This document shows positions 1 to 64,000 of a DNA stretch of 64,000 bases, in pieces. A program made the position numbers and the translations under genes. Location: positions 147,374,001 through 147,438,000 of the forward strand of contig OZ024743.1 in assembly GCA_964016885.1 (NCBI GenBank), given 5' to 3'. This DNA is from Eledone cirrhosa (lineage: Eukaryota). The notes beneath the pieces were generated by a model. That model saw nothing but the letters and a program-made list of their open reading frames with translations, was not told the origin of the DNA and ran no database searches. How positions within the stretch are numbered: position 1 is the stretch's first letter; every line of letters starts with the position of its first letter.

Positions 1-962
1 ATCCAGAGCCAACTCTTACACGGGAGGACGCTGTCCGTGCAATTTATGCTCGGAGGAAACTTTACAAACGCTGTTTTCGACGGACCAACTCCTAAACAAG
101 AAATATGAACTGGTTACTGCATGTAAACATAGATTGCGTAGGACTTACCTCGCCCTCAAACCCCATAATGACCCGGGTGGGGGGTGGGATGGGGGGTAGA
201 CTAGGGCTATAACACCCCACTTGCCGATTTTGTATTGGGTAACCCCTGCTTGCCAAGGGAGACGTAAGATCTTTTTATTCCTTTATCGCTTCCTCTATAC
301 TTCCTTCTTCCCCCATCCCTCCCTATTCCTTCTACCCCAGTTCTTTTTCTTTGTCGGCGTATTTTTCTCGCCCACCCGAGGCAGCCCTTTGGCCCCTTGT
401 AGCCTCAGTACCCCCACCCCTCCCCTAGTCTATAGATTTAGCGGACTCCGCTTTTTATAGCAGTTGTGTTAGACCTCGGATACTTGCCCCCTTATCCGAC
501 CGCTCCCCCTTTTTTCCGTCCCTTCTATATTTCTTAGTGGCACCTCTGCCTTAATTTCTCGTTTCAGTATTTCTTTCTTCTCTTTTCTTTTGGGCGGGGT
601 GGATTCTGAATTTATTTTTCCGTATTCTACTTTTACCTCGTACGAACTTTCATGTAGCTTGTATAAGAACTTTTGTAGCGTGGCGGTACCATTAGAGTTA
701 GCATTAGTATATTTTTTTCGGGACTCAGAATTATTATCTCGTACTAGTCTACTTTTCTGCACTGGGTGGTTGCTGGCCTTGTGCGTGGGGTAGAAACCTT
801 TATTAATTATTTCGTGGTAGTTTCTTTAGTATCTTGGCCCCTTTGTTGACGCGTCACCGTATGATATACGTACTTATACCTCTTAAAAGGGTCCTTTCCT
901 ATTCCGTCCCACCTAGTTTATTTACTTATTTTTTTATTTTTTTATTTCTTTATTACCTTATT

Positions 963-1006
<44 letters not shown>

Positions 1007-1560
1007 TATTTATTTATTTATCTAGCCTAGCAATAGCTAGAGACTTAGGTCGTAGAAATTACTTATATATTTTTTTCTTTACATTTATTCGCTTTTTATC
1101 ACTCTCAGTATTTTTTTTTTTCAAATATATATTTTTACCCTTCATTGTTCCACTTACCGTTTCGACTTCCTCTCCCTCCCCCTCCCTAGTATCTTCTTTG
1201 ACCTCATGCCCAGCTGTAGCCGGCACTACCAACGCATGATTGGGTCTACTCCACCCCTCTCCTTTTTTCCTACTGGCAGGTCTAGCCACCCTCTCCCCCA
1301 CTAATTTGCCATCACAGAATTACTACTAACTTGTGACCAATCCTTGTGTCAATCACTTTGACCATATATGGAATTACCCCTTGAGAAGCTCGGCTATTTA
1401 TATACCAGGATACATTTTCATTTAATCCAGAATAAGTCGTCGAAACGGCTTGCGCTCAGCCGTCGGGGTCTTACTGGTTCCTATTATCCACTCTACTACT
1501 CTAAGTATTGAGTACTTTGGTGTGTTATGGTCCACCTGGTTCCTTACCACATTTCCTTCG

Positions 1561-1561
<1 letters not shown>
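1..1561 (+). mobile_element. Penelope-like retroelement (Naiad-type), end of GIY-YIG domain plus long 3' UTR with hammerhead; truncated by the window start
   Basis: Nearly identical to 45733-47309 (codes SRANSYTG...CNLCSEE...ELVTACKH, then the same T-rich UTR); ends in (TA)n. Confidence 0.9.
1376..1469 (+). ncRNA. Type I hammerhead ribozyme, U3-A8 core variant
   Basis: Stem I ACCCC/GGGGT; core TTGAGAA; long stem II; GAAA; stem III CGGCT/AGCCG; GTC cleavage triplet (cut after 1464). Confidence 0.8.
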
Positions 1562-1598
<37 letters not shown>

Positions 1599-2816
1599 AT
1601 ATATATAATAAATTTGAAGACTAAAATCCAAAGAGGGCTCGATAAGGATAAATATATATCACATATATAAGAACCGTAGAGCAAATATTTATTAAAATAA
1701 CAGATTAAAGTTTAAGCAAAGAATCTCTGCTTTCACCCTTAACGGGATCTTCTGAAACTAAAAAAATAAAACTGTGAACGCAGGAGTAAATATTTAGAAA
1801 AACGTTGCAACCGAAGGAAGACAGAAAGACGATACTTTGGTTCGTGGAGACGTTCCCTGGCAACGAACGAAAAAAACGAAGGTAATACGTCATTACGTGG
1901 TGCGGTGTGAACAATTACACGCAAAGACAAAACCACGTTTATGGTATAACTGAAGATGTAGACTAAAATTCTATTTAGGAAACCGAATGATTCTCAGCTT
2001 CAGAGTTAAGAATAATGTAAATAAATTACAGAGGTTATTGAAATCAACAATAATTAAATATATACATGCACGCATCCATATACGTACATACACATATATA
2101 CGCGTAAACACCCGCCATGGGTATGCAAATACAGGCACGTACACAAAAACACGCGCACACATACAAAAACCCACGCAACGCCTGTACCCGCACACATACG
2201 AACGTATACACCCAATACACATAAAACATATATAAAAAAATATATATACATGTGTGTGTGTGTGTGTATCCCGGGTTCAATCGGGAGTAACCACAGTAAG
2301 TAAGGTACTCAATACATAGCAGAGTATAAATATTTAATATAAATGGCTTCATTCGGTAGAAATCATCTCCCGAATGAAACAGTTCTAGTCCTGTAGAAGC
2401 CATTTCTCTCTCTCTCTTTCTATATATATATATATATATATAATTCTCGCCTTTTTAATGAAACCTCGGTTTTGAAAACCCTCTCTCTCACTCTCAAACA
2501 CCCCATGCCCTCTCTCTAACACTCATTCCACTCCCCCTATCTCCATCTAATTAAAATGTTATCCTAATTTTAGCCTGTGTCATTTAATATGTAGAACTAT
2601 ACAGATGAGAATTGAATGCAATTATTGTTTAAGGTTCATTTGGTTGTATAGATACGTTGCTTTACCCCAAATTCACATTTATGTTCTGTTTCAAGACGGT
2701 ACTTCTGATGACTTACGTTTGGAGGTGTAAGTGGGGACTATCAGAAAAGTTCTGTATTACTTTCTAATTTTTCCACTCCTACGTTATGTCCACTCATTAT
2801 TATATAATTGTACAAA

Positions 2817-3010
2817 GGCGGTGGATTGGCAGTATTGGTAGAGTGTCGGATGCCATGCTTTGGCGCAGAGAGTTACGGCCCTTGCCATTCTGAGCTCAAA
2901 TCTCGCCGAGGTTAACTTTGCCTTTCATCCTTACGGGGTCGATAAAATAGAGTACCAGTAATACACTGGGTAATTGCTGGCCTTGTGCCTAACGTAGAAA
3001 CAATTATTAT
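2817..3010 (+). mobile_element. tRNA-derived SINE, full length
   Basis: A-box-like TGGCAGTATTGG, B-box-like GCTCAAATC, core GCCTTTCATCCTTACGGGGTCGATAAAAT, tail GGCCTTGTGCC..GTAGAAACAATTATT; TSD ATTATTATATAATTGTACAAAG on both sides. Confidence 0.9.
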
Positions 3011-7372: not shown

Positions 7373-7405
7373 TATATGTATGTGTGTGTCTGTATATATA
7401 TGTGA

Positions 7406-7479
<74 letters not shown>

Positions 7480-7481
<2 letters not shown>

Positions 7482-7715
7482 CGAAGGAGTTGTGGTAAGG
7501 AACCAGATGGACCATAACGCACCAGAGTACTCAATACTTAGGGTAGTAGAGTGGGTAATAGGAACATGTATGACCCCGACGGCAGAGCTCAAGCCGTTTC
7601 GACAGCTATTTATGGACTAAATTAGAATTTACCAGGCTAAAGATTCTAATTTAGTCCAGAAATAGCCGTCGAAATGGCTTGAGCTCTGCCGTCAGGGTCA
7701 TACATTTTCCTATAT
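7480..7715 (-). mobile_element. Naiad-family 3' end fragment with fold-back inverted duplication
   Basis: 7480-7630 is a diverged reverse complement of ~47165-47309; 7640-7713 inverts 7558-7630. Confidence 0.8.
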
Positions 7716-8034
7716 ATATGTATGTGTATATATGTGTGTGTCTGTATATATATATATATATATATATGTTTGTGTATGTGTACGCGAATCTATAAGCATA
7801 GGGATATTTATTTTGTCGGTTATTCAACAAAAATATATAATTTTAACTGATTGGAAGCACTCGACAGATTTCTAGAGTATAAACCACCCTTTTTTTCATT
7901 TTGTCATTGTTTGCTACCTCACTTATACTCCCACCTGCGAACGTGTGTGTATTTATAGTTTGTCTGCCTATATGTTTATGTACACACACACGCACGTGTA
8001 TGTGTGTGTATATTTATGTATGTGGGTGTAAGTA

Positions 8035-10895: not shown

Positions 10896-10970
10896 TTTTT
10901 TTCGACACACGATTTCATATTAAAAACCTCGCAAAACTAATTCATCGGCGTTATATATAACGTTATATAA

Positions 10971-11292
10971 GGGCGGTAGATTGGCAGTATCGGTAGAGGG
11001 TCGGACGCCATGCTTTGCAGCAAAGTTACGACCCTTTACGATCTGAGTTCAAATCCCGCCGAGGTTGACTTTGCCTTTCATCCTTACGGGGTCGATAAAA
11101 TAAAGTACCAGTAATGCACTGGGTAATTGCTGGCCTTGTGCCTAAAGTAGAAACAGTTATATATAACGTTATATATAAGTTCAAATCCCGCCGAGGTTGA
11201 CTTTGCCTTTCATCCTTACGGGGTCGATAAAATAAAGTACCAGTAATGCCCTGGGTAATTGCTGGCCTTGTGCCTAAAGTAGAAACAGTTAT
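10971..11292 (+). mobile_element. Full-length SINE plus tandem duplication of its 3' half
   Basis: SINE 10971-11160; TSD-like GTTATATATAACGTTATATATAAG; 3' half repeated at 11178-11292. Confidence 0.9.
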
Positions 11293-44671: not shown

Positions 44672-45952
44672 ATAAAAAGAGCTCCCGACTCACCCTTCGA
44701 CGTCAGCATGGGCGCTACGGATTCGGCTGAGGTCACAGATCTTATAGGATTATTCCTAATAGCCAAACTCACCGATATGTTTCCTGCATTCGGTGGTGGA
44801 TTGTACCGTGATGATGGGCTCCTTACCCTTAAAGGGTACAACCCCAGTAGTACAGATCGGGTCCGGAAACAATTAATCAGCTTCTTCCGCGACTGGGGAT
44901 TTAAAATAATCCTACAAACGTCCCTGACCCGAGTAAACTTCCTGGACGTTACCCTGGACCTCGAAAACGACCTGTACTACCCATACAGGAAACCTAATGA
45001 CAACCTGCACTACATCCACCGCCGATCAAACCATCCTAGGAACATCACCAACAAACTGGTCAAAAACATCGCCCTCCGCATATCCTGTTTGTCAGCTAAT
45101 GAGCGGATATTCGATGAACATGTGCCTTATTACAACCAGGCCCTCAGGCGGAGTGGTTTCCGGGAGGAAATATCCTACTGTCCTGCTCCCATTAACGGAA
45201 CCAGCAGGCGACACCGCCGCTCACGCAATGCAACATGGTTTAATCCTCCCCACAACGCATAGGTGACAACTCCCATCGGGACAATATTCTTTAGGCTCAT
45301 TGAAAAACTCTTCCCAATACAACACCGCTACCACAACATAATTAACAAAAATACCATCAAACTCTCTTACAGCACTACACCAAACTTCGCACAAAATATA
45401 GTCTCCTCTAACAACAAAAAACTCAACCCCGATGGAAGAAATAACCTAAATAGCAGTGAAGAGCCGACCAGGAGGTGCAACTGTCCTGATAGATCCATTT
45501 GCCCCCTCGACAACAGATGCAGAGACCATAATGTGATCTACCAGTGCAACGTGAGGATGGACACCTCCAACAAAGCTTATATAGGACTAACCGCATGTGA
45601 CTTCAAGACCCGTCTATACCAACATAGACTTACCTTCCGAAACCCGGCCCGGCGTCACGCCACTACACTTTCAGGCCACATATGGGACCTCAAGGACAAC
45701 AACATCACCTATTATCTCACTTGGAGATTACTGTCCAGAGCCAACTCTTACACGGGAGGACGCCGTCCGTGCAATTTATGCTCGGAGGAAACTTTACAAA
45801 CGCTGTTTTCGACGGACCAACTCCTAAACAAGAAAGATGAACTGGTTACTGCATGTAAACATAGATTGCGTAGGACTTACCTCGCCCTCAAACCCCATAA
45901 TGACCCGGGTGGGGGGTGGGATGGGGGGGGGGGGGGTAGACTAGGGCTATAA
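44672..45952 (+). pseudogene. PLE polyprotein C-terminal half (RT palm/thumb, Cys linker, GIY-YIG endonuclease) with a single TAG at 45260-45262
   Basis: FDVSMGATDSAEV, GLYRDDGL, VNFLDVT, SNHP, WFNPP, CNCx5CPx4C, VIYQC..YIGLT, CNLC..E, CKH. Confidence 0.9.
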
Positions 45953-46705
45953 CACCCCACTTGCCGATTTTGTATTGGGTAACCCCTGCTTGCCAAGGGA
46001 GACGTAAGATCTTCTTTTTATTCCTTTATCGCTTCCTCTATATTTCCTTCTTCCCCATCCCTCCCTAGTCCTTCTACCCCAGTTCTTTTTCTTTGTCGGC
46101 GTATTTTTCTCGCCCACCCGAGGCAGCCCTTTGGCCCCTTGTAGCCTCAGTACCCCCACCCCTCCCCTAGTCTATAGATTTGGCGGACTCCGCTTTTTAT
46201 AGCAGTTGTGTTAGACCTCGGATACTTGCCCCCTTATCCGACCGCTCCCCCTTTTTTCCGTGCCTTCTATATTTCTTAGTGGCACCTCTGCCTTAATTTC
46301 TCGTTTCAGTATTTCTTTCTTCTCTTTTCTTTTGGGCGGGGTGGATTCTGAATTTATTTTTCCGTATTCTACTTTTACCTCGTACGAACTTTCATGTATC
46401 TTGTATAAGAACTTTTGTAGCGTGGCGGTACCATTAGAGTTAGCATTAGTATATTTTTTTCGGGACTCAGAATTATTATCTCGTACTAGTCTACTTTTCT
46501 GCACTGGGTGGTTGCTGGCCTTGTGCCTGGGGTAGAAACCTTTATTAATTATTTCGTGGTAGTTTCTTTAGTATCTTGGCCCCTTTGTTGACGCGTCACC
46601 GTATGATATACGTACTTATACACCTCTTAAAAGGGTCCTTTCCTATTCCGTCCCACCTAGTTTATTTACTTATTTTTTATTTCTTTATTTCTTTATTACC
46701 TTATT

Positions 46706-46741
<36 letters not shown>

Positions 46742-47123
46742 TATTTATTTATTTATTTATTTATTTATCTAGCCTAGCAATAGCTAGAGACTTAGGTCGT
46801 AGAAATTACTTATATATTTTTTTCTTTACATTTATTCGCTTTTTATCACTCTCAGTATTTTTTCTTTTCAAATATATATTTTTACCCTTCATTGTTCTAC
46901 TTACCGTTTCGACTTCCTCCCCCTCCCCCTCCCTAGTATCTTCTTTGACCTCATGCCCAGCTGTAGCCGGCACTACCAACGCATGATTGGGTCCACTCCA
47001 CCCCCTCCCCTTTTTTCCTACTGGCAGGTCTAGCCACCCTCTCCCCCACTAATTTGCCATCACAGAATTACTACTAACTTGTGACCAATCCTTGTGTCAA
47101 TCACTTTGACCATATATGGAATT

Positions 47124-47217
47124 ACCCCTTGAGAAGCTCGGCTATTTATATACCAGGATAAATTTTCATTTAGTCCAGAATAAGCCGTCGAAACGGCTTG
47201 AGCTCAGCCGTCGGGGT
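47124..47217 (+). ncRNA. Type I hammerhead ribozyme, U3-A8 core variant
   Basis: ACCCC-TTGAGAA-G..CGGCT...AGCCG.C-GAAA-CGGCT tgagctc AGCCG-TC^GGGGT (cut after 47212). Confidence 0.82.
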
Positions 47218-47308
47218 CTTACTGGTTCCTATTACCCACTCTACTACTCTAAGTATTGAGTACTTTGGTGCGTTATGGTCCACCTGGTTCCTTACCACAT
47301 TTCCTTCG

Positions 47309-48444: not shown

Positions 48445-48448
<4 letters not shown>

Positions 48449-49567
48449 TATATTATATTTAGAGTTTAAACTCAAAGTCATTTACAATTAATCAGCTCAA
48501 AGAAAGAAGCATTTCCGAGCAGTGAAATACAAGTTAAAATATATTAATATATTATAAACACATACGTGTTTGTATTGTAAGAGACAAAGTTAGCTACAAT
48601 GAAATAAACTAATTAAAATGAATACAATTTGTCCGTCTCGTTATAAGTCAATAAAGACAAGCTTATATTGGCAAAAGCCGTGATTCCTGGACAAATTTAA
48701 ATTTCAAAATCCAAACCTGCTCCGTAGATGAATTTGAACTTCGAAACCTAAATATGTTTCGCAACGATGGTATAAAAATTGAAATATAAAAGAATTGAAA
48801 TATAAAAAGTGAAATATTCAAATCTTCTGTGCTTATCAACAGGAATCCAGTAAAATTAGTACATTTCACCTCCAAAAATTTTGCAGGACTGATTTACACG
48901 TGGTATAATCAGCTATACTAGCCATCCCATACTCCCAGTGCTAGAAATAACAGCCGTTTATATGGGATTAAAATTTGCTCTACAGTTAAGGAGCAATAAT
49001 ATTATATTATATTTAGAGTTTAAACTCAAAGTCATTTACAATTAATCAGCTCAAAGAAAGAAGCATTTCCGAGCAGTGAAATACAAGTTAATATATATTA
49101 ATATATGATAAACACATACGTGTTTGTATTGTAAGAGACAAAGTTAGCTAGAATGAAATATTGGGAGTATGGGATGGCTAGTATAGCTGATTATACCACG
49201 TATAAATCAGTCCTGCAAAATTTTTGGAGGTGAAATGTACTAATTTTACTGGATTCCTGTTGATAAGCACAGAAGATTTGGATATTTCACTTTTTATATT
49301 TCAATTTTTTTTATATTTCAATTTTTATACCATCGTTGCGAAACATATTTAGGTTTCGAAGTTCAAATTCATCTACGGAGCAGGTTTGGATTTTGAAATT
49401 TAAATTTGTCCAGGAATCGCGGCTTTTGCCAATATAAGCTTGTCTTTATTGACTTATATCGAGACAGACAAATTGTATTCATTTTAATTATTTCATTCTA
49501 GCTAACTTTGTCTCTTACAATACAAACACGTATGTGTTTATCATATATTAATATATATTAACTTGTA
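48445..49567. mobile_element. Non-coding 554-nt unit in partial tandem plus inverted copy, flanked by (TA)n
   Basis: 48445-48605 repeated at 49000-49160; 49161-49567 inverts ~48526-48938; end segment recurs at 53155-53245. Confidence 0.75.
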
Positions 49568-49872
49568 TATATATATATATATATATATATATACCATAAA
49601 ACATGTCTATAGAATCACCAGATAAAATATATACCTTTTCCTCTCCCAATTAGCATAATTAACCATATAAAAAAAGTCAATTAGACCAAGCTATAAGAAT
49701 AAAGGCTCCTATGAAGAAATCTCCGACAAATAACCGAAAGCAGCCCCTTCGCGGCGGTTACGACCGGTGATTTATCGAATATTTCTACAGCATGTATAAA
49801 TCGACCAGATATACAGTCAACTAAACAGAATTAGGTGTAAAATAAACTAGAAGAAATGTGTACACATTTAAT

Positions 49873-49952
49873 TACCTCTACCATGGTTTCGTCCGCATTT
49901 TAAGACATCCGATAACATTGGATATCTAGAGCTTCGGATTCTTCAGGAGTTA
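49873..49952 (-). ncRNA. Type I hammerhead ribozyme
   Basis: Reverse complement reads CTC-CTGAAGA-ATCCG...CGGAC-GAAA-CCATGG-TA^GAG. Confidence 0.75.
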
Positions 49953-50563
49953 GCTCAAATTTAGACAATTCATTTTCCAAAGTGATCGCGCCAAGAATAC
50001 ATTCAAAAATGGCTAAGAATCGTGACGTGGCAGCAGTCAAGTTAGAAAGGATGTAATTAGTTGCTTACGGCTGGTAGGCTTTTTGCTAGAAAGCGCAGCC
50101 CAATACAGCCAAAATTGTATCTCAACCTAACGGGAGATTATTACATAGGTTTACATATATATATATAGTCATAGATATATATGTGTTTTGCAACGGGTCA
50201 CTTTGTGGCTCAATGTGTTCACTTTTCTTCTAGTTTATTTTACACCTAATTCTGTTTAGTTGACTGTATATCTGGTCGATTTATACATGCTGTCGAAATA
50301 TTCGATAAATGAACCGCCGTAACCGCCGCGAAGGGGCTGCTTTCGGTTATTTGTCGGAGATTTCTTCATAGGAGCCTTTATTCTTATAGCTTGGTCTAAT
50401 TGATTTTTTATATGGTTAATTATGCTAATTGGGAGAGGAAATGGTATATATTTTATCTGGTGATTCTATAGACATGTTTTATGATATATAGCTCTGATTA
50501 TTTAATTTATTAATTCTTCATTGAGCCATAAAGTGACCCGTTGCAAAACACATATATATCTAT

Positions 50564-50613
<50 letters not shown>

Positions 50614-50813
50614 CTTTATATGTAATAATCTCCCGTTAGATTGAGATACAATTTTGGCTGTATTGGGCTGCGCTTTCTAGCAAAAATCCTACCAGTCGTA
50701 AGCAACTAATCACATCATTTCTAACTTGACTGCTGCCACCTCACGATTCTTAGCCATTTTTGAATGTATTCTTGGCGCGATCACTTTGGAAAATGAATTG
50801 TCTAAATTTGAGC

Positions 50814-50893
50814 TAACTCCTGAAGAATCCGAAGCTCTAGGTATCCAATGTTATCGGATGTCTTAAAATGCGGATGAAACCATGGTAGAGGTA
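50814..50893 (+). ncRNA. Type I hammerhead ribozyme with extended stem II
   Basis: TAACTC-CTGAAGA-ATCCG[...TATCC/GGATG...]CGGAT-GAAA-CCATGG-TA^GAGGTA (cut after 50887). Confidence 0.8.
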
Positions 50894-51024
50894 ATTAAAT
50901 GCGTACACTTTTCTTCTAGTTTATTTTATACCTAATTCTGTTTAGTTGACTGTATTTCCAGTGAATTTCCAACCGATAAGGTATGATTTTCATGAGTATG
51001 TCTCTATTTATAAAAAAAACTTTG

Positions 51025-53121: not shown

Positions 53122-53155
<34 letters not shown>

Positions 53156-53257
53156 TATATTATATTTTGAGATAAAACTCTCAGTCGTTTACAATAAATC
53201 AGCTCCAAGAAAGGGGCATTTCCGAGCAGTTAAATACATTAATATATATATGATAGA

Positions 53258-59630: not shown

Positions 59631-62600
59631 AAAAGGCCTTGGGGTGCGTCTGGGCGCGCAAAACCCACACCACACGAAGCAAAATGTACGCCACAGTAGA
59701 TGTACTTTTCGCCACCCCCAAGAGGCGAAGTCTCACGCTTTGGAAACCCTAAAGAGAGAGGAGATATTCTTGGTGCCCTCCTACTGCGGGCAGAAAATTG
59801 TGAGGCTCAAAGTGACACAGGTCCCGTCCGACGTGCACATAGCTTGGCTGGTCGCGTCTGTATTTGCTGGAATCGAGGAGAAAACCACCATACTGCAAAT
59901 ACAGAGAATGGGATGAGAGAACTGGTCAGGAATAGGCATGCAAATGCTAATACAAACTGACCAGGAGTGCATCGAGGCCATCCCAGACATCATAGACCTC
60001 GAGGAAGGACTCCAACTCCCTATAAGCGTGGAAGGAAGCCGCCCAAAGTGCTATCTCTGTGGGCAGAAGGGTAACCTCAGGGCCTTCTTCCCGCAGAAGA
60101 CAGCCAAGAAGAGGGCCCCTCCTTCCGACGCCTGATCCGCTGCTACCAAGAGAAGGGAAGGCAACAGAAGCAGAAAACCCTTCCATGGTGAGTAGGAGGG
60201 AAACGTCCGTGGCACCCATACAAAGGCCACGGACAACTAAAACAGCGGCACCAGTGGCGGCAATACCAACAGTCGTAGTAGCTACACCGGCGGCAAAATC
60301 ACCGGTGCGGGCTCCACTACCATCACCAACAGCAGTGGAGCTCATACCCCTCCTAAACGCCACGGAATCCGACGTGGAGTATGAGGTGGGAGGAGAGTGG
60401 CAAACGGTCTGCCGCAAAAACAGAAAAGAAAAAAACCCTTAGCTTCACCCTCCAAAAGCGAAGGCAAACAAAGAGGTGTAAAGGCTGCAAGGAGACTTGC
60501 AGCAACACCAGCACCACCATCACCATCACCACTACAAGCATCACCACCAACAACAACCATACCACCACCACCAGCATCATCAAAAACACCAACATCGCAA
60601 ACACAACAAAACACACACACCCAACAGCAACAAAATACCCCTCCCCCCAAAAAGTACACAGCCGTAAACATAAGTTGTCCACAATTTAAAATAGACGACT
60701 ACACAGACCACAAATTTGTGATCTGTGAGATCGACATAGACAGACTTCATAGACAAGGACCCAGTTACTGGAAGCTGAACGCGTCTTTCCCGGCGCGCAA
60801 AGCCTACAGAGACCGGATTAACGTCTTAGTTAAGCGGTCGTTGACGGGAGCGGTCGTCAACAACAGGTGGTGGTTTGCCCTAGAGTCGATTAGGTTTAGC
60901 AAAGGACTAGTGATAGAGGAAAAGAGAGTAGAGGGAGAGCTAGTCAGATAGCTAGAAGAGGCGTTTAGGACACGCAACCGACGTGCTTGCAGCGAGATTG
61001 GCACTCGACCAATTCTTCAACGCGAAGGCAGTGTTGCGAAAAGCCAATAACAGCCGGTGAAATACGGAAAGCGATGACAAACTGCACAAGGGGTAAATCG
61101 CCAGGTTTGGATGGTCAGCCCTACGAGCTTTATGCATTTATGCCAGACTTTTTCGGTGACCTCTTGGCAAACGTCTACTGCAACTGGCAGCAGAACGGGA
61201 GCATTCTCAATTTTGTGAGACAGGGAGCGGTGGCGCTGCTGAGAAAAGACCCGAACAAGGGGGACGTTATAGACAACTTCAAGCCCATAACTCTGCTAAA
61301 CGCAGAGTTTAAGATTTTGGCCAATGTTAGCAAAGAGATTGGCGCTTGTCGTCGGTGATCTGGTGGGTGAGTCGCAGACATGCGCCATCCCGGACAGATC
61401 CATCTACGACAACCTCCATCTCATGCGATAGATCATAGAGAGGGTGGTTAAGGAACCTGGCACGGGTGGGGCCCTGATCAACTTGGATCAATCTAAAGTA
61501 TTTGATAGGGCCGACCATCGGTACCTGGCTGCGGTCATCGAGGCGGCCGGCTTCGGGCCCGTTTTTAGGGGCTGGATCGCTGCGATACACAGCGACATCT
61601 GCTCGAATGTGAGGGTGAATGGTCACCTGTCGCAGCCTTTCAGAATCAAGCGCTCGGTCCGCCAGGGTTGCCCCTCTCATCCCTCTTGTACGTACTGGCC
61701 CTAGAACCTTTACTACACTAATTGGAGACGATGAGGGGGGAGGGGGGTCCCAGGCGAACTGGGGTGCGGGAGGTCCGTGTCAACGTACGCCGACGACGTC
61801 ACTGTGGTGGTGTCGAGCACCAAACACGTCCAGATGCTCGGCACCGTTCTCAAGGAATACAAAGCGGTGACAGGAGCAAAGATAAACCAGGAAAAGTCAG
61901 TGGGCTTGCAACTCGGCACCTGGAGAGGCAAGTCCATGCCGTCCGACAGCGTCGTGAGGCGCTGGACGGAAGGACCGGTTAAATTGCTCGGGGTCTGGTT
62001 CGGTTCGGACCTCCAGATGGAGAAGAACTTGAGTGAGGTAACGAGCAGGGTGGCCTCTCTCACCCAGAAATGGGCCGAGAGGAGGCTGTCTCTGTAAGGT
62101 CGGGCGGAGGTGGCGAATGCGTACATAGCGTCCGTCATCTGCTACCGCCTGACATTCGTACCTTGCCCCCGCCCAACTCTGACCAAAATGGAGCGGCTTC
62201 TCTTCCGCTTTTTGTGGAAGGGACGTGCTCCCATGGTCAGACTATCCATTTGCCGTCAACACCCGTTGCGTGAAGAACTAGGCATGCCGTGGCTGATGAT
62301 GCGCAAACATGCGCTGAGGCTGCGACATCTCTGGTGCTTCCTTGACGGTGAACAGGTGTGGTCGCCTTTTGCCAGACACGCAGAGCGAGCCAGTCCGAGA
62401 TGCGCGCAGACCGACGAAACCGTCCTGCACGCACTCGTTCATTGTCCGAGCATTGCTGACTTGTGGATCTATGTCGAACAGTTGCTATCGCGTGTAGGAC
62501 TGATCCGGTTATCGACTGAGTCCATTGTGCAGATGGTCTCACCGTCTTCCTTCGAGGAGGACGGGCAGGCGGTTTTCATCTGCCTGGTGGCAATGGCGAA

Positions 62601-63118
62601 AGAGATTGTGAGGTGGACAAGCTTGAAAGGGTTAAAGACAGATACTTTCCTCTTCGGCGAATCCCTAATTAACTTTTTCAAGTTTCACTTGAAGAGCAAA
62701 ATCAGGGTGGAGATGCATGCTGACTTCTAGCAAGTTTGTTGAAAGGTGGCTGAATGTAGCGAGAATGGTCGGAGTGAACGGAACTGTTCTGAATATACGC
62801 CTGTAGTTAGAGAGATGGAAAAATTGAGAGCGGGCGCTTGCCCTGGTGGTCAGGGTGGCCGTGGTCTTTTGTGTGGTTTTCGCCACAAGTAACCCTCGGA
62901 GGCCCCCTCCCCCTATTGGGTAATTTTTCATTGTTTCAATTTTCATTTTTATTGTTTATATATATATGTTTCTATGTCCTTTTTTTTCTTTTCTTATATA
63001 AATAATAAAAATCTTTACACGCACAAAACCCACATCGTACCGTCCTGTACCGTCCTGTACCGTCCTGTGCCGTCTGTAATGTTTTTCTTGATGTCAGTCC
63101 TTGTGGCCAATAAAGAAA

Positions 63119-63160: not shown

Positions 63161-64000
63161 CTTGAATCTCAGTCATTGATGTTAGTTAATTGGAAAGTCC
63201 GTTGGAATGAATATCAAGCCACTACCTGCAGCCTCAGATATTCAGGATGTATCGGAGGGTTCTTGCTGTTCCCAGCAAGCATGCCTTTTGAAGCGTTCCA
63301 AAAAGCGCGAAGGGGCCGATTTTCTTTAACCATCCCTGGAAACTTTTGGAGATAGTCCCCAGTGCGCCTATGACAATCGGGATCACTTTGACTTCATGGC
63401 AGTTCCAAATCCTTTTTACCTCCCACTTTAAGTCCTGGTATCGGTTAATTTTCTCCCTCTCATTCTCTTGCACTCTCGTGTCGAATGGGCAGGCCACATC
63501 CACAATCAGACACTTTTTTCTTTGTCCACAACCACCAGGTCAGGTCTATTGTGTTCCAGTTTCTTGTCTGTCTGTATCCTAAAATCCCACAGCAACTTCA
63601 CCTGATCGTTCTCCAGCACCGCCTCTGGCTTATGCTCATACCATTTCTCAGAATGTGGTAAATTGTTTACTTTGCACAGGTGCCAGTGGTCACCCTGCCC
63701 ATCACATCATGTCTCCAGCCCTTATAGTGGGTCTGGGCTAGGTGTTTACACTCGGATACAATGTGAGCCACAGTCTCTTCTCTCCCTCCACAGATCCTGC
63801 ACAGTGGGCTAGCCTCCTCCTTGTAAATATGGTGTTTCAACCACTTCGTTTTGAGGGCCTGCTCCTGCGCAGCCATTAACATTCCTTCTGTAGCCTTTTT
63901 GAGGTCTCCTCTTCTCAACCAGTTCCATGTCTGTGGATCTCTAAATTCAGTTTTCTCAAAGAAGGTACTATGAAGGGATTTTCCCTGAAGGGTGCTCTTT
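63160..64000 (-). mobile_element. R4/Dong-like RLE LINE 3' part, runs off the window
   Basis: TEGMLMAAQEQAL, CRICGGREETVAHIVSEC, RHD, NRPD...DVACP, EKINRYQDL, IPIVIGALG; ends in (TAA)n. Confidence 0.88.

What the first reader, a model, noticed from the sequence alone, without database searches (positions are those of the whole stretch)
49590..50955. Permuted, terminally redundant ~680-nt non-coding hammerhead element: candidate large animal retrozyme or circRNA retroelement
Seen: three copies of one ORF-less unit (43725-44429 +, 49590-50214 -, 50212-50955 +). They begin at different points of the unit. Two overshoot a full turn (30 nt and ~58 nt redundancy; unit lengths 675 and 686 nt). Each carries a type I HHR, and the plus copy starts ~10 nt after the predicted cleavage site. 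Known: metazoan non-LTR retrozymes are HHR-bearing tandem units, usually under ~400 nt, that form circRNAs and are thought to use PLE machinery. Inference: this is an unusually large retrozyme-like family reverse-transcribed from a circular or multimeric RNA and mobilised by the neighbouring Penelope RT/GIY-YIG at (TA)n sites.
Basis: partly seen in the sequence, partly recalled or inferred. Interest (0 to 1): 0.85.

Follow-up and report, generated by a model that had tools for sequence, protein, structure and literature searches.

The report
Penelope-spread hammerhead retrozyme, 660-nt unit
This is a non-coding jumping element with thousands of copies in this animal genome; it carries a predicted self-cutting RNA motif, and the ends of its copies suggest that a Penelope-type reverse transcriptase copied it from ribozyme-cut and probably circular RNA, a route already proposed for animal retrozymes.

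Summary
The unit is real: ORF-less, 657-684 nt, 4,259 exact hits of one 21-nt motif in the genome. Corrections: the copies at 49590-50215 and 50212-50955 are two arms of one inverted insertion, and the 43725 copy has a mutated ribozyme core. Copies are not freely permuted. Their 3' ends fall at two fixed (TA)n-joined sites about 108 nt apart (113 of 118 arms), and inverted pairs mostly use one of each (39 of 53). That is the Penelope 'tail' footprint. The type I hammerhead covaries across subfamilies. In one subfamily 7 of 91 arms start exactly at the predicted cut (background about 0.2), which points to cleavage in vivo. Most arms read across the cut without a scar, and 34 of 113 exceed one turn (longest 3.0). 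A circular template is likely but not shown; uncut multimers remain possible, and no RNA data were available. The size is not unusual (51-972 bp reported). The neighbouring Hydra-type PLE shares target and architecture but no sequence. The scan reported the same class (310-478-nt units) elsewhere in this genome. Verdict: new member of the non-LTR retrozymes.

The parts
43725..44429 (+). Insertion 1: single arm of subfamily A, about 1.05 units, 30-nt exact terminal repeat, 3' end at fixed site S1 joined to (TA)n 44430-44490
44051..44130 (+). Degenerate type I hammerhead of insertion 1 (core and cleavage triplet mutated relative to other A copies; predicted inactive)
49590..50215 (-). Insertion 2, left arm (subfamily C): unit position 29 to S1, 3' end joined to (TA)n at about 49566-49593
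49873..49951 (-). Type I hammerhead of the left arm; predicted cut between 49879 and 49878
50212..50215 (.). 4-nt overlap joining the 5' ends of the two arms
50212..50955 (+). Insertion 2, right arm: starts 10 nt 3' of the cut position, runs 1.09 turns, non-standard (probably truncated) 3' end
50484..50490 (+). S1, first fixed 3'-end site of the family (read through inside this arm)
50609..50622 (+). S2, second fixed 3'-end site of the family, about 108 nt after S1 in typical copies (read through here)
50815..50892 (+). Type I hammerhead of the right arm, short palindromic stem III; predicted cut after 50887
44577..47290 (+). Neighbouring 5'-truncated coding PLE (RT part, in-frame stop at 45260-45262, CxCX5C linker, GIY-YIG part, own pLTR). 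Candidate helper class only; no sequence shared with the unit

Best explanation
The unit is a non-coding repeat of about 660-680 nt with thousands of genomic copies, two fixed (TA)n-joined 3' ends and a conserved type I hammerhead motif, and it is likely a non-autonomous non-LTR retrozyme copied in trans by a Penelope-like reverse transcriptase/endonuclease from ribozyme-processed, probably circular RNA. Likely cycle: (1) loci holding two hammerheads, or RNA dimers paired through the palindromic stem III, are transcribed and self-cleave (inferred from 5' ends that pile up exactly at the cut); (2) part of the monomers are ligated to circles (inferred, by analogy with coral, mussel and axolotl retrozymes); (3) a PLE protein cuts a (TA)n tract and starts cDNA at internal site S1 or S2, often from both DNA ends at once, S1 on one side and S2 on the other (sites shown; enzyme inferred); (4) cDNA stops at a variable point, at the cut end if the template is linear, or runs past one turn if it is continuous; (5) cDNA ends join the target or each other over 1-7-nt overlaps, giving single arms or 5'-to-5' inverted pairs (shown).
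For: Copy number: 4,259 exact motif hits, reversed control 0. Fixed 3' ends: 59 S1 + 54 S2 of 118 non-edge arms in 79 loci taken in genome order. Inverted pairs: 30 in those 79 loci; S1+S2 in 39 of 53 pairs with standard ends (25.6 expected, p=1.5e-4; unbiased subset 18 of 26, p=0.02). This matches the PLE inverted 5'-truncated copy with a tail at one end (PMC8557442) and the two internal RT start sites that define the tail (PMC11167929). Hammerhead: 94% of cells paired, 7 of 13 pairs with two-sided changes in 24 variants. Cleavage footprint: 7 of 91 subfamily-A arms begin exactly at the first base after the cut against 0.0014-0.004 stops per nt in the first turn upstream; 15 of 366 genome-wide hits are true truncations at that base against 0 at a control 3 nt upstream. 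Continuity: 70 of 74 arms pass the cut; 75 of 80 read-through arms keep the two bases before it and the other 5 differ by one letter; 34 of 113 arms exceed one turn, longest 3.02. One source per insertion: rare variants shared by sister stretches, A direct 40 of 178 (2.9 expected), A inverted 22 of 89 (1.3), C inverted 19 of 75 (1.0). Stop rate rises from about 0.002 to about 0.0055 per nt after one turn, as expected if the enzyme must displace its own cDNA.
Against: No RNA evidence at all (no RNA holder; see Tried and rejected). A control 12 nt downstream of the cut also gave 12 true truncations (about 530 copies estimated), not significantly fewer than at the cut (p=0.16), so ends are spread over the 14 nt after the cut and part of that may reflect AT-rich microhomology. 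In subfamily C direct repeats shared only 1 of 49 rare variants (0.7 expected). Shared variants can also come from gene conversion or tandem source loci. In subfamily A, 5 of 6 arms that approach a second cut site stop at or just after it (two may be one duplicated locus), which a covalent circle does not predict; in the mixed unbiased set 7 arms passed a second cut and none stopped there. The higher stop rate after one turn is equally explained by linear transcripts of short source loci. In the one PLE tested in vitro, uncut RNA was the dominant substrate (PMC11167929). No long arrays were seen. Rfam does not score the motif. The helper PLE is not identified.
Confidence: 0.58

Rival explanations
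1. Same non-autonomous PLE-mobilised element, but with no covalent circle. Templates are linear read-through transcripts of 1.1-3-unit loci, cut at some hammerheads and uncut at others, and length is regenerated by strand transfer between terminal redundancies, as for ordinary PLE pseudo-LTRs.
For: Uncut RNA is the main substrate of the anole Poseidon PLE. 17 of 34 arms longer than one turn stop within about 85 nt beyond S1, as if templates end there. Second-pass stops at the cut in subfamily A. Only 1 of 113 unbiased arms reaches a third unit.
Against: Copies are on average shorter than their sources, so length must be regenerated. Repeated stretches within a locus differ by a median 3% against 11% from typical family members in subfamilies up to about 22% apart, so there is no fixed tandem master. 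All three animal retrozymes tested form circles (PMC7229834).
Confidence: 0.27
2. The template is the cut linear monomer whose two ends are held together by hammerhead stem I (a nicked circle); RT usually jumps the nick once, displaces its own cDNA and ends at the cut on the second approach.
For: Explains together the exact stops at the cut, the higher stop rate after one turn and the second-pass stops at the cut in subfamily A.
Against: Read-through junctions show no added or lost bases beyond background, whereas template jumps usually leave scars (recalled for R2-type RTs). Arms of 1.6-3.0 units exist. Small numbers.
Confidence: 0.1
3. The unit is the ordinary pLTR of a coding PLE not yet found, and the copies are 5'-truncated insertions of that element.
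For: PLE pLTRs carry type I hammerheads, and Xenopus retrozymes are homologous to pLTRs. The search for a parent was limited to fetched loci and one protein query pair.
Against: Long arms wrap into the unit itself, up to 3 turns, not into an ORF. Of 116 5' flanks, the 15 pairs that share sequence up to the junction join at different unit positions, and the 11 flanks read out are other TA-ending repeats. PLE coding matches occur in 20 of 202 loci, in either orientation and at no fixed unit position.
Confidence: 0.05

Closest known systems
Metazoan non-LTR retrozymes (Cervera and de la Pena 2020, PMC7229834; Li, Clavereau and Pollet 2026, bioRxiv 10.64898/2026.07.22.740005)
   Same: Non-coding repeat unit with one type I hammerhead, thousands of copies, monomers plus some dimers and trimers, co-occurring with PLEs; length within the reported 51-972 bp.
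   Different: Mostly dispersed 0.1-1.5-unit arms rather than tandem arrays; longer than the 170-400-nt RNAs tested experimentally. Fixed two-site 3' ends, two-armed inverted insertions and 5' ends at the cut are not described in the parts of those papers I read. Circular RNA not tested here.
Penelope-like elements with pLTR hammerheads, especially the Hydra clade (Craig et al. 2021, PMC8557442) and anole Poseidon PAc (Frangieh et al. 2024, PMC11167929)
   Same: 5' truncation, partial tandems, inverted 5'-truncated arm, optional tail at one end from two internal RT start sites, (TA)n targets (Hydra clade).
   Different: No ORF; tail about 108 nt rather than 30-40; no coding parent found; 5' ends at the hammerhead cut are seen here, whereas PAc RNA-seq showed no reads starting or ending at its cut.
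Plant LTR retrozymes (PMC4918200, PMC5680766; search listing and abstracts only)
   Same: 600-1000-nt non-coding circular RNAs with hammerheads.
   Different: Those have LTRs, type III hammerheads, 4-bp TSDs and Gypsy helpers; none applies here.

Membership tests
Non-LTR retrozyme | Type I hammerhead in each unit | tested here: met
   Core, three stems and covariation across subfamilies; rows for one search were picked with a core descriptor, so core invariance there is not independent; no Rfam hit
Non-LTR retrozyme | No protein-coding capacity | tested here: met
   Longest ATG-ORF 37 (C) and 46 (A) codons, both strands, circularised
Non-LTR retrozyme | Head-to-tail copies with at least two hammerheads at some loci | tested here: met
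   L173 3.02 units, L160 2.33, L080 2.07, L006 1.85; 6 of 113 unbiased arms span two complete motifs
Non-LTR retrozyme | Self-cleavage | tested here: inconclusive
   No assay possible; genomic footprint only: 7 of 91 arms start exactly at the cut
Non-LTR retrozyme | Expression as linear and circular monomer RNA | not testable with these tools
   No RNA run holds the unit
PLE-mobilised element | 5' truncation with fixed 3' ends at two sites (optional tail) | tested here: met
   113 of 118 arms
PLE-mobilised element | Inverted 5'-truncated arm, tail at one end only | tested here: met
   39 of 53 pairs S1+S2
PLE-mobilised element | Sequence homology to the pLTR of a coding PLE | tested here: inconclusive
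   None to the neighbouring PLE (best E 0.025, AT-rich); other PLE families of the genome were not compared
Autonomous PLE (unit as attached pLTR) | RT + GIY-YIG ORF continuous with the unit | tested here: not met
   No fixed junction to coding sequence in 202 loci
Plant-type LTR retrozyme | LTRs with type III hammerhead | tested here: not met
   Type I topology, no LTR-internal-LTR layout

The most novel reading that the evidence does not exclude
The genome keeps a countable record of the whole retrozyme cycle: hammerhead-cut linear RNA (copies starting exactly at the cut) and ligated circles (seamless multi-turn copies) of one 660-nt RNA are both reverse-transcribed by a dimeric PLE enzyme that primes two internal sites from the two sides of one (TA)n break. 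This would be genomic evidence that a PLE-associated hammerhead cuts in the germline and that circles are transposition templates.
Probability: 0.45. Interest if true: 0.68.

Novelty: new member of a known kind. Interest (0 to 1): 0.45.

Why it matters
PLE mobilisation of animal retrozymes through circular RNA is proposed, not shown, in the papers read (PMC7229834 Discussion; bioRxiv 2026), and the role of the PLE hammerhead is open (dispensable in vitro in PMC11167929). This family gives countable footprints: two RT start sites, one-of-each use in inverted pairs, and exact starts at the cut. It names a template and sites for a direct test. It is not a new class: size and make-up fall within known retrozymes, and the scan has noted younger families with more turns in the same genome, which are better test cases for circularity.

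Tried and rejected
Expression: no RNA holder listed; the four runs laid are contigs; X1 and X2 cover only the TA-rich bit, X5 and X8 hold the family but are of unrecorded kind. No evidence either way. Rfam: 0 hits at gathering, only TA-repeat noise at E<=10. Pfam: no family for the two neighbouring PLE pieces; the Hydra assignment rests on the CxCX5C, CxxC and CxH motifs compared with the text of PMC8557442; the DKT and RWK motifs lie in the missing part. RNA-editing scars (lead from e1-8803865): no sense A>G excess over T>C, ratios 1.16 (p=0.16) and 0.95. Cut-site profile for subfamily C: one search gave 0 matches (poor anchor); one search gave only 2 loci, both 3' of the cut. My first reading that S2 lies at unit position 77 was wrong; it is about 128 in window numbering. 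Random permutation rejected (fixed 3' ends). Three independent insertions rejected. Shared 5' flanks as a parent element rejected. Circular fold of two natural units is more stable than 20 shuffles each (z -3.5, -2.9), but the hammerhead hairpins alone could give that, so it is not used as evidence for a circle. Promoter: a conserved octamer-like word followed by a TATA-like tract lies about 40-65 nt before S1; the likeness to the newt satellite-2 promoter is recalled, one search listed no paper I read on it, untested. Look-up of earlier findings by sequence returned nothing. output was swamped by TA hits and redone.

Full report
Observation. A self-comparison of the window confirms three homologous stretches. 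The 43725-44429 copy (subfamily A) has an exact 30-nt terminal repeat and period 675. The copies at 49590-50215 (-) and 50212-50955 (+) (subfamily C) are 96% alike outside the TA tract and meet 5'-to-5' over a 4-nt overlap; they are one insertion. A and C units are 78% identical over aligned columns. Neither has an ATG-ORF over 46 codons. I number the unit from u1 = window 50491; the predicted cut lies between u397 and u398 (after 50887).

Family. The window lies in a 3.0-Gb assembly. A 21-nt motif shared by A and C has 4,259 exact matches, reversed control 0, a lower bound on arms. I took the first 100 listed matches (all on contig C1, 12-69 Mb), merged them into 79 loci (four overlapping duplicates dropped) and mapped 120 arms. 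Identities to the two references run from about 70 to 99%, so there are several subfamilies. Periods measured between motif copies are mostly 657-663 or 680-684 nt.

Ends. Of 118 arms not cut by a locus edge, 59 end at S1 (u about 680) and 54 at S2, nearly all joined to (TA)n; 5 end elsewhere. S2 lies a median 108 nt after S1 (83-151, 148 matches including overlapping loci); 30 of 54 S2 arms showed the S2 word in the 100-nt view, the rest were hidden by long TA runs or ended a little earlier. 5' ends vary. Thirty inverted 5'-to-5' pairs occur in the 79 loci, usually with 1-7-nt overlaps. Over all loci then held, 39 of 53 pairs with standard ends have one S1 and one S2 end (25.6 expected, p=1.5e-4), 12 S2+S2, 2 S1+S1; unbiased subset 18 of 26 (p=0.02). 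Craig et al. describe this for PLEs: 5' truncation, partial tandems, an inverted 5'-truncated copy and a tail at one end (PMC8557442, passages and section 11). Frangieh et al. show that the tail is the stretch between two internal RT start sites (PMC11167929, parts 1-2 of 4).

Hammerhead. Intact A copies have a perfect 5-bp stem I, a G-C-closed stem II and a self-complementary stem III; C copies have the same core with different stems. On 24 variants chosen across subfamilies with a core descriptor, 94% of cells pair and 7 of 13 pairs change on both sides; 0 of 500 shuffles reach this, and slid controls give 28-47% (relatedness inflates such counts, and 6 of 24 rows are unpaired at the first pair of stem II). 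Co-folding two copies gives an intermolecular stem III, the double-hammerhead form (prediction). The window's A copy is mutated in the core. Rfam scores none of them.

Is it cut in vivo? In the unbiased set 74 arms reach the cut; 4 stop at u395-399 and 70 read on. For subfamily A, 366 places match the 19 nt after the cut exactly; 15 have both preceding bases changed and all 15 are true truncations at u398, while the same filter 3 nt upstream gave one match, a point mutant. A control at u410 gave 12 true truncations among about 530 estimated copies, not significantly lower (p=0.16). Among TA-joined junctions listed for contigs C1-C2 (100 of 314 rows shown; 23 loci, one duplicate dropped, classed by eye) 8 lie at u396-399, 14 at u401-411 and none at u381-395. 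The cleanest test used 89 loci from the first 93 of the 100 listed matches (one failed to map): 7 of 91 arms begin exactly at u398, none 1-5 nt upstream, against 0.0014-0.004 stops per nt per arm over the rest of the first turn. The spike needs no microhomology. I infer that some templates were linear RNAs with the 5' end made by the ribozyme; the window's plus arm (u408) fits the class that stops just short of that end.

Is the template circular? 34 of 113 arms pass one full turn; only one reaches a third unit; the longest seen anywhere are 3.02, 2.33 and 2.07 units. Read-through is seamless: 75 of 80 arms keep both bases before the cut, 5 differ by one letter. Repeated stretches within a locus differ by a median 3-4% against 11-13% for typical family members, and share rare variants far above chance in three of four classes (A direct 40 of 178, A inverted 22 of 89, C inverted 19 of 75; C direct 1 of 49). 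The stop rate triples after one turn, and 17 of 34 long arms stop at u600-670, partly at TA-like tracts. These facts need a template, or a strand transfer, that regenerates length from one source. A circle does so most simply, and animal retrozymes tested so far form circles (PMC7229834, passages and part 4 of 6). Against it: second-pass stops at the cut in subfamily A (5 of 6, though not in the mixed set), and uncut RNA as the main substrate of PAc. I put a covalent circle at about even odds. No RNA data were available.

Helper. The PLE at 44577-47290 has RT motifs, a CxCX5C linker and CxxC/CxH motifs as described for the Hydra clade, which targets (TA)n. It is 5'-truncated with an in-frame stop. 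Its own pLTR fragments are very abundant, also show two 3' ends about 60 nt apart and inverted pairs, and often sit in the same TA runs as the unit, in both orientations. The unit shares no sequence with it. Coding matches appear in 20 of 202 loci with no fixed junction. A Hydra-type PLE is the likeliest helper class; this copy or family is not shown to be the helper.

Comparison and novelty. Li et al. (bioRxiv 10.64898/2026.07.22.740005, parts 1-3 of 5; supplements closed and may list similar families) report retrozyme units of 51-972 bp, monomer fractions from 0 to 1, and homology to pLTRs in Xenopus, so neither size nor PLE link is new. In searches I saw no listing that maps retrozyme ends to two RT start sites or to the cut; I read only the four papers named, in the parts named. 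Earlier notes of this scan report 310-, 422-, 467- and 478-nt families with the same two-armed layout in this genome (unchecked, seen after my result); no note matched this sequence. Verdict: a real, older, larger member of the non-LTR retrozymes with useful mechanistic footprints; interest 0.45.

Noticed in passing
window 42559-46242 versus L174 (G000:C4:147366000-147374500) and window 2-1662: Insertion 1, its upstream flank and the neighbouring PLE are duplicated about 46 kb upstream (96-98% identical); the upstream copy keeps a 780-nt inverted PLE arm that the window copy has mostly lost.
   Followed up: partly
window 44490-44583 (-): A short fragment with a different type I hammerhead-like motif sits between insertion 1's TA run and the PLE; related pieces in L116, L177, L198. 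Probably another HHR family.
   Followed up: no
window 47110-47290; also 1359-1607, 7393-7723, 14588-14726, 35458-35550: pLTR/3' end of the Hydra-like PLE with a hammerhead-like motif and palindromic stem III; short inverted fragments of it occur in dozens of the fetched loci, with two 3' ends about 60 nt apart.
   Followed up: partly
window 48445-49568: Another inverted-arm element (48527-48937 versus 49568-49162, 96%; 162-nt direct repeat) ending in (TA)n; insertion 2 sits in its TA run. Related to 53152-53249, just upstream of a PLE RT fragment.
   Followed up: no
L027, L037, L067, L097, L023, L113, L135, L145: Several unrelated type I hammerhead-like motifs with other palindromic stem III sequences lie within 1.5 kb of unit copies, suggesting many HHR families sharing (TA)n targets.
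   Followed up: no
window 50421-50455 (u617-650): The most conserved word between subfamilies includes an octamer-like motif followed by a TATA-like tract shortly before S1; possible internal promoter (likeness to newt satellite 2 is recalled).
   Followed up: no
L063 and other subfamily-A copies, about 12-90 nt after the cut: A GT...AG stretch with a pyrimidine tract follows the cut in subfamily A, reminiscent of the short retained intron of Penelope (recalled); acceptor not kept in C.
   Followed up: no
window 59950-62950 (+) and 63237-64000 (-): Decayed LINE with RT motifs and zinc-finger-like C-terminus; a second non-LTR element with a restriction-like endonuclease end.
   Followed up: no
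window 28111-29956: Large low-complexity palindromic region with a 204-nt 90% inverted repeat at 29753-29956.
   Followed up: no
window 2800-3010, 10960-11165, 18065-18280, 23000-23190, 27090-27480, 37280-37665, 38207-38395, 43200-43353: About 190-nt SINE-like repeat in at least a dozen copies.
   Followed up: no
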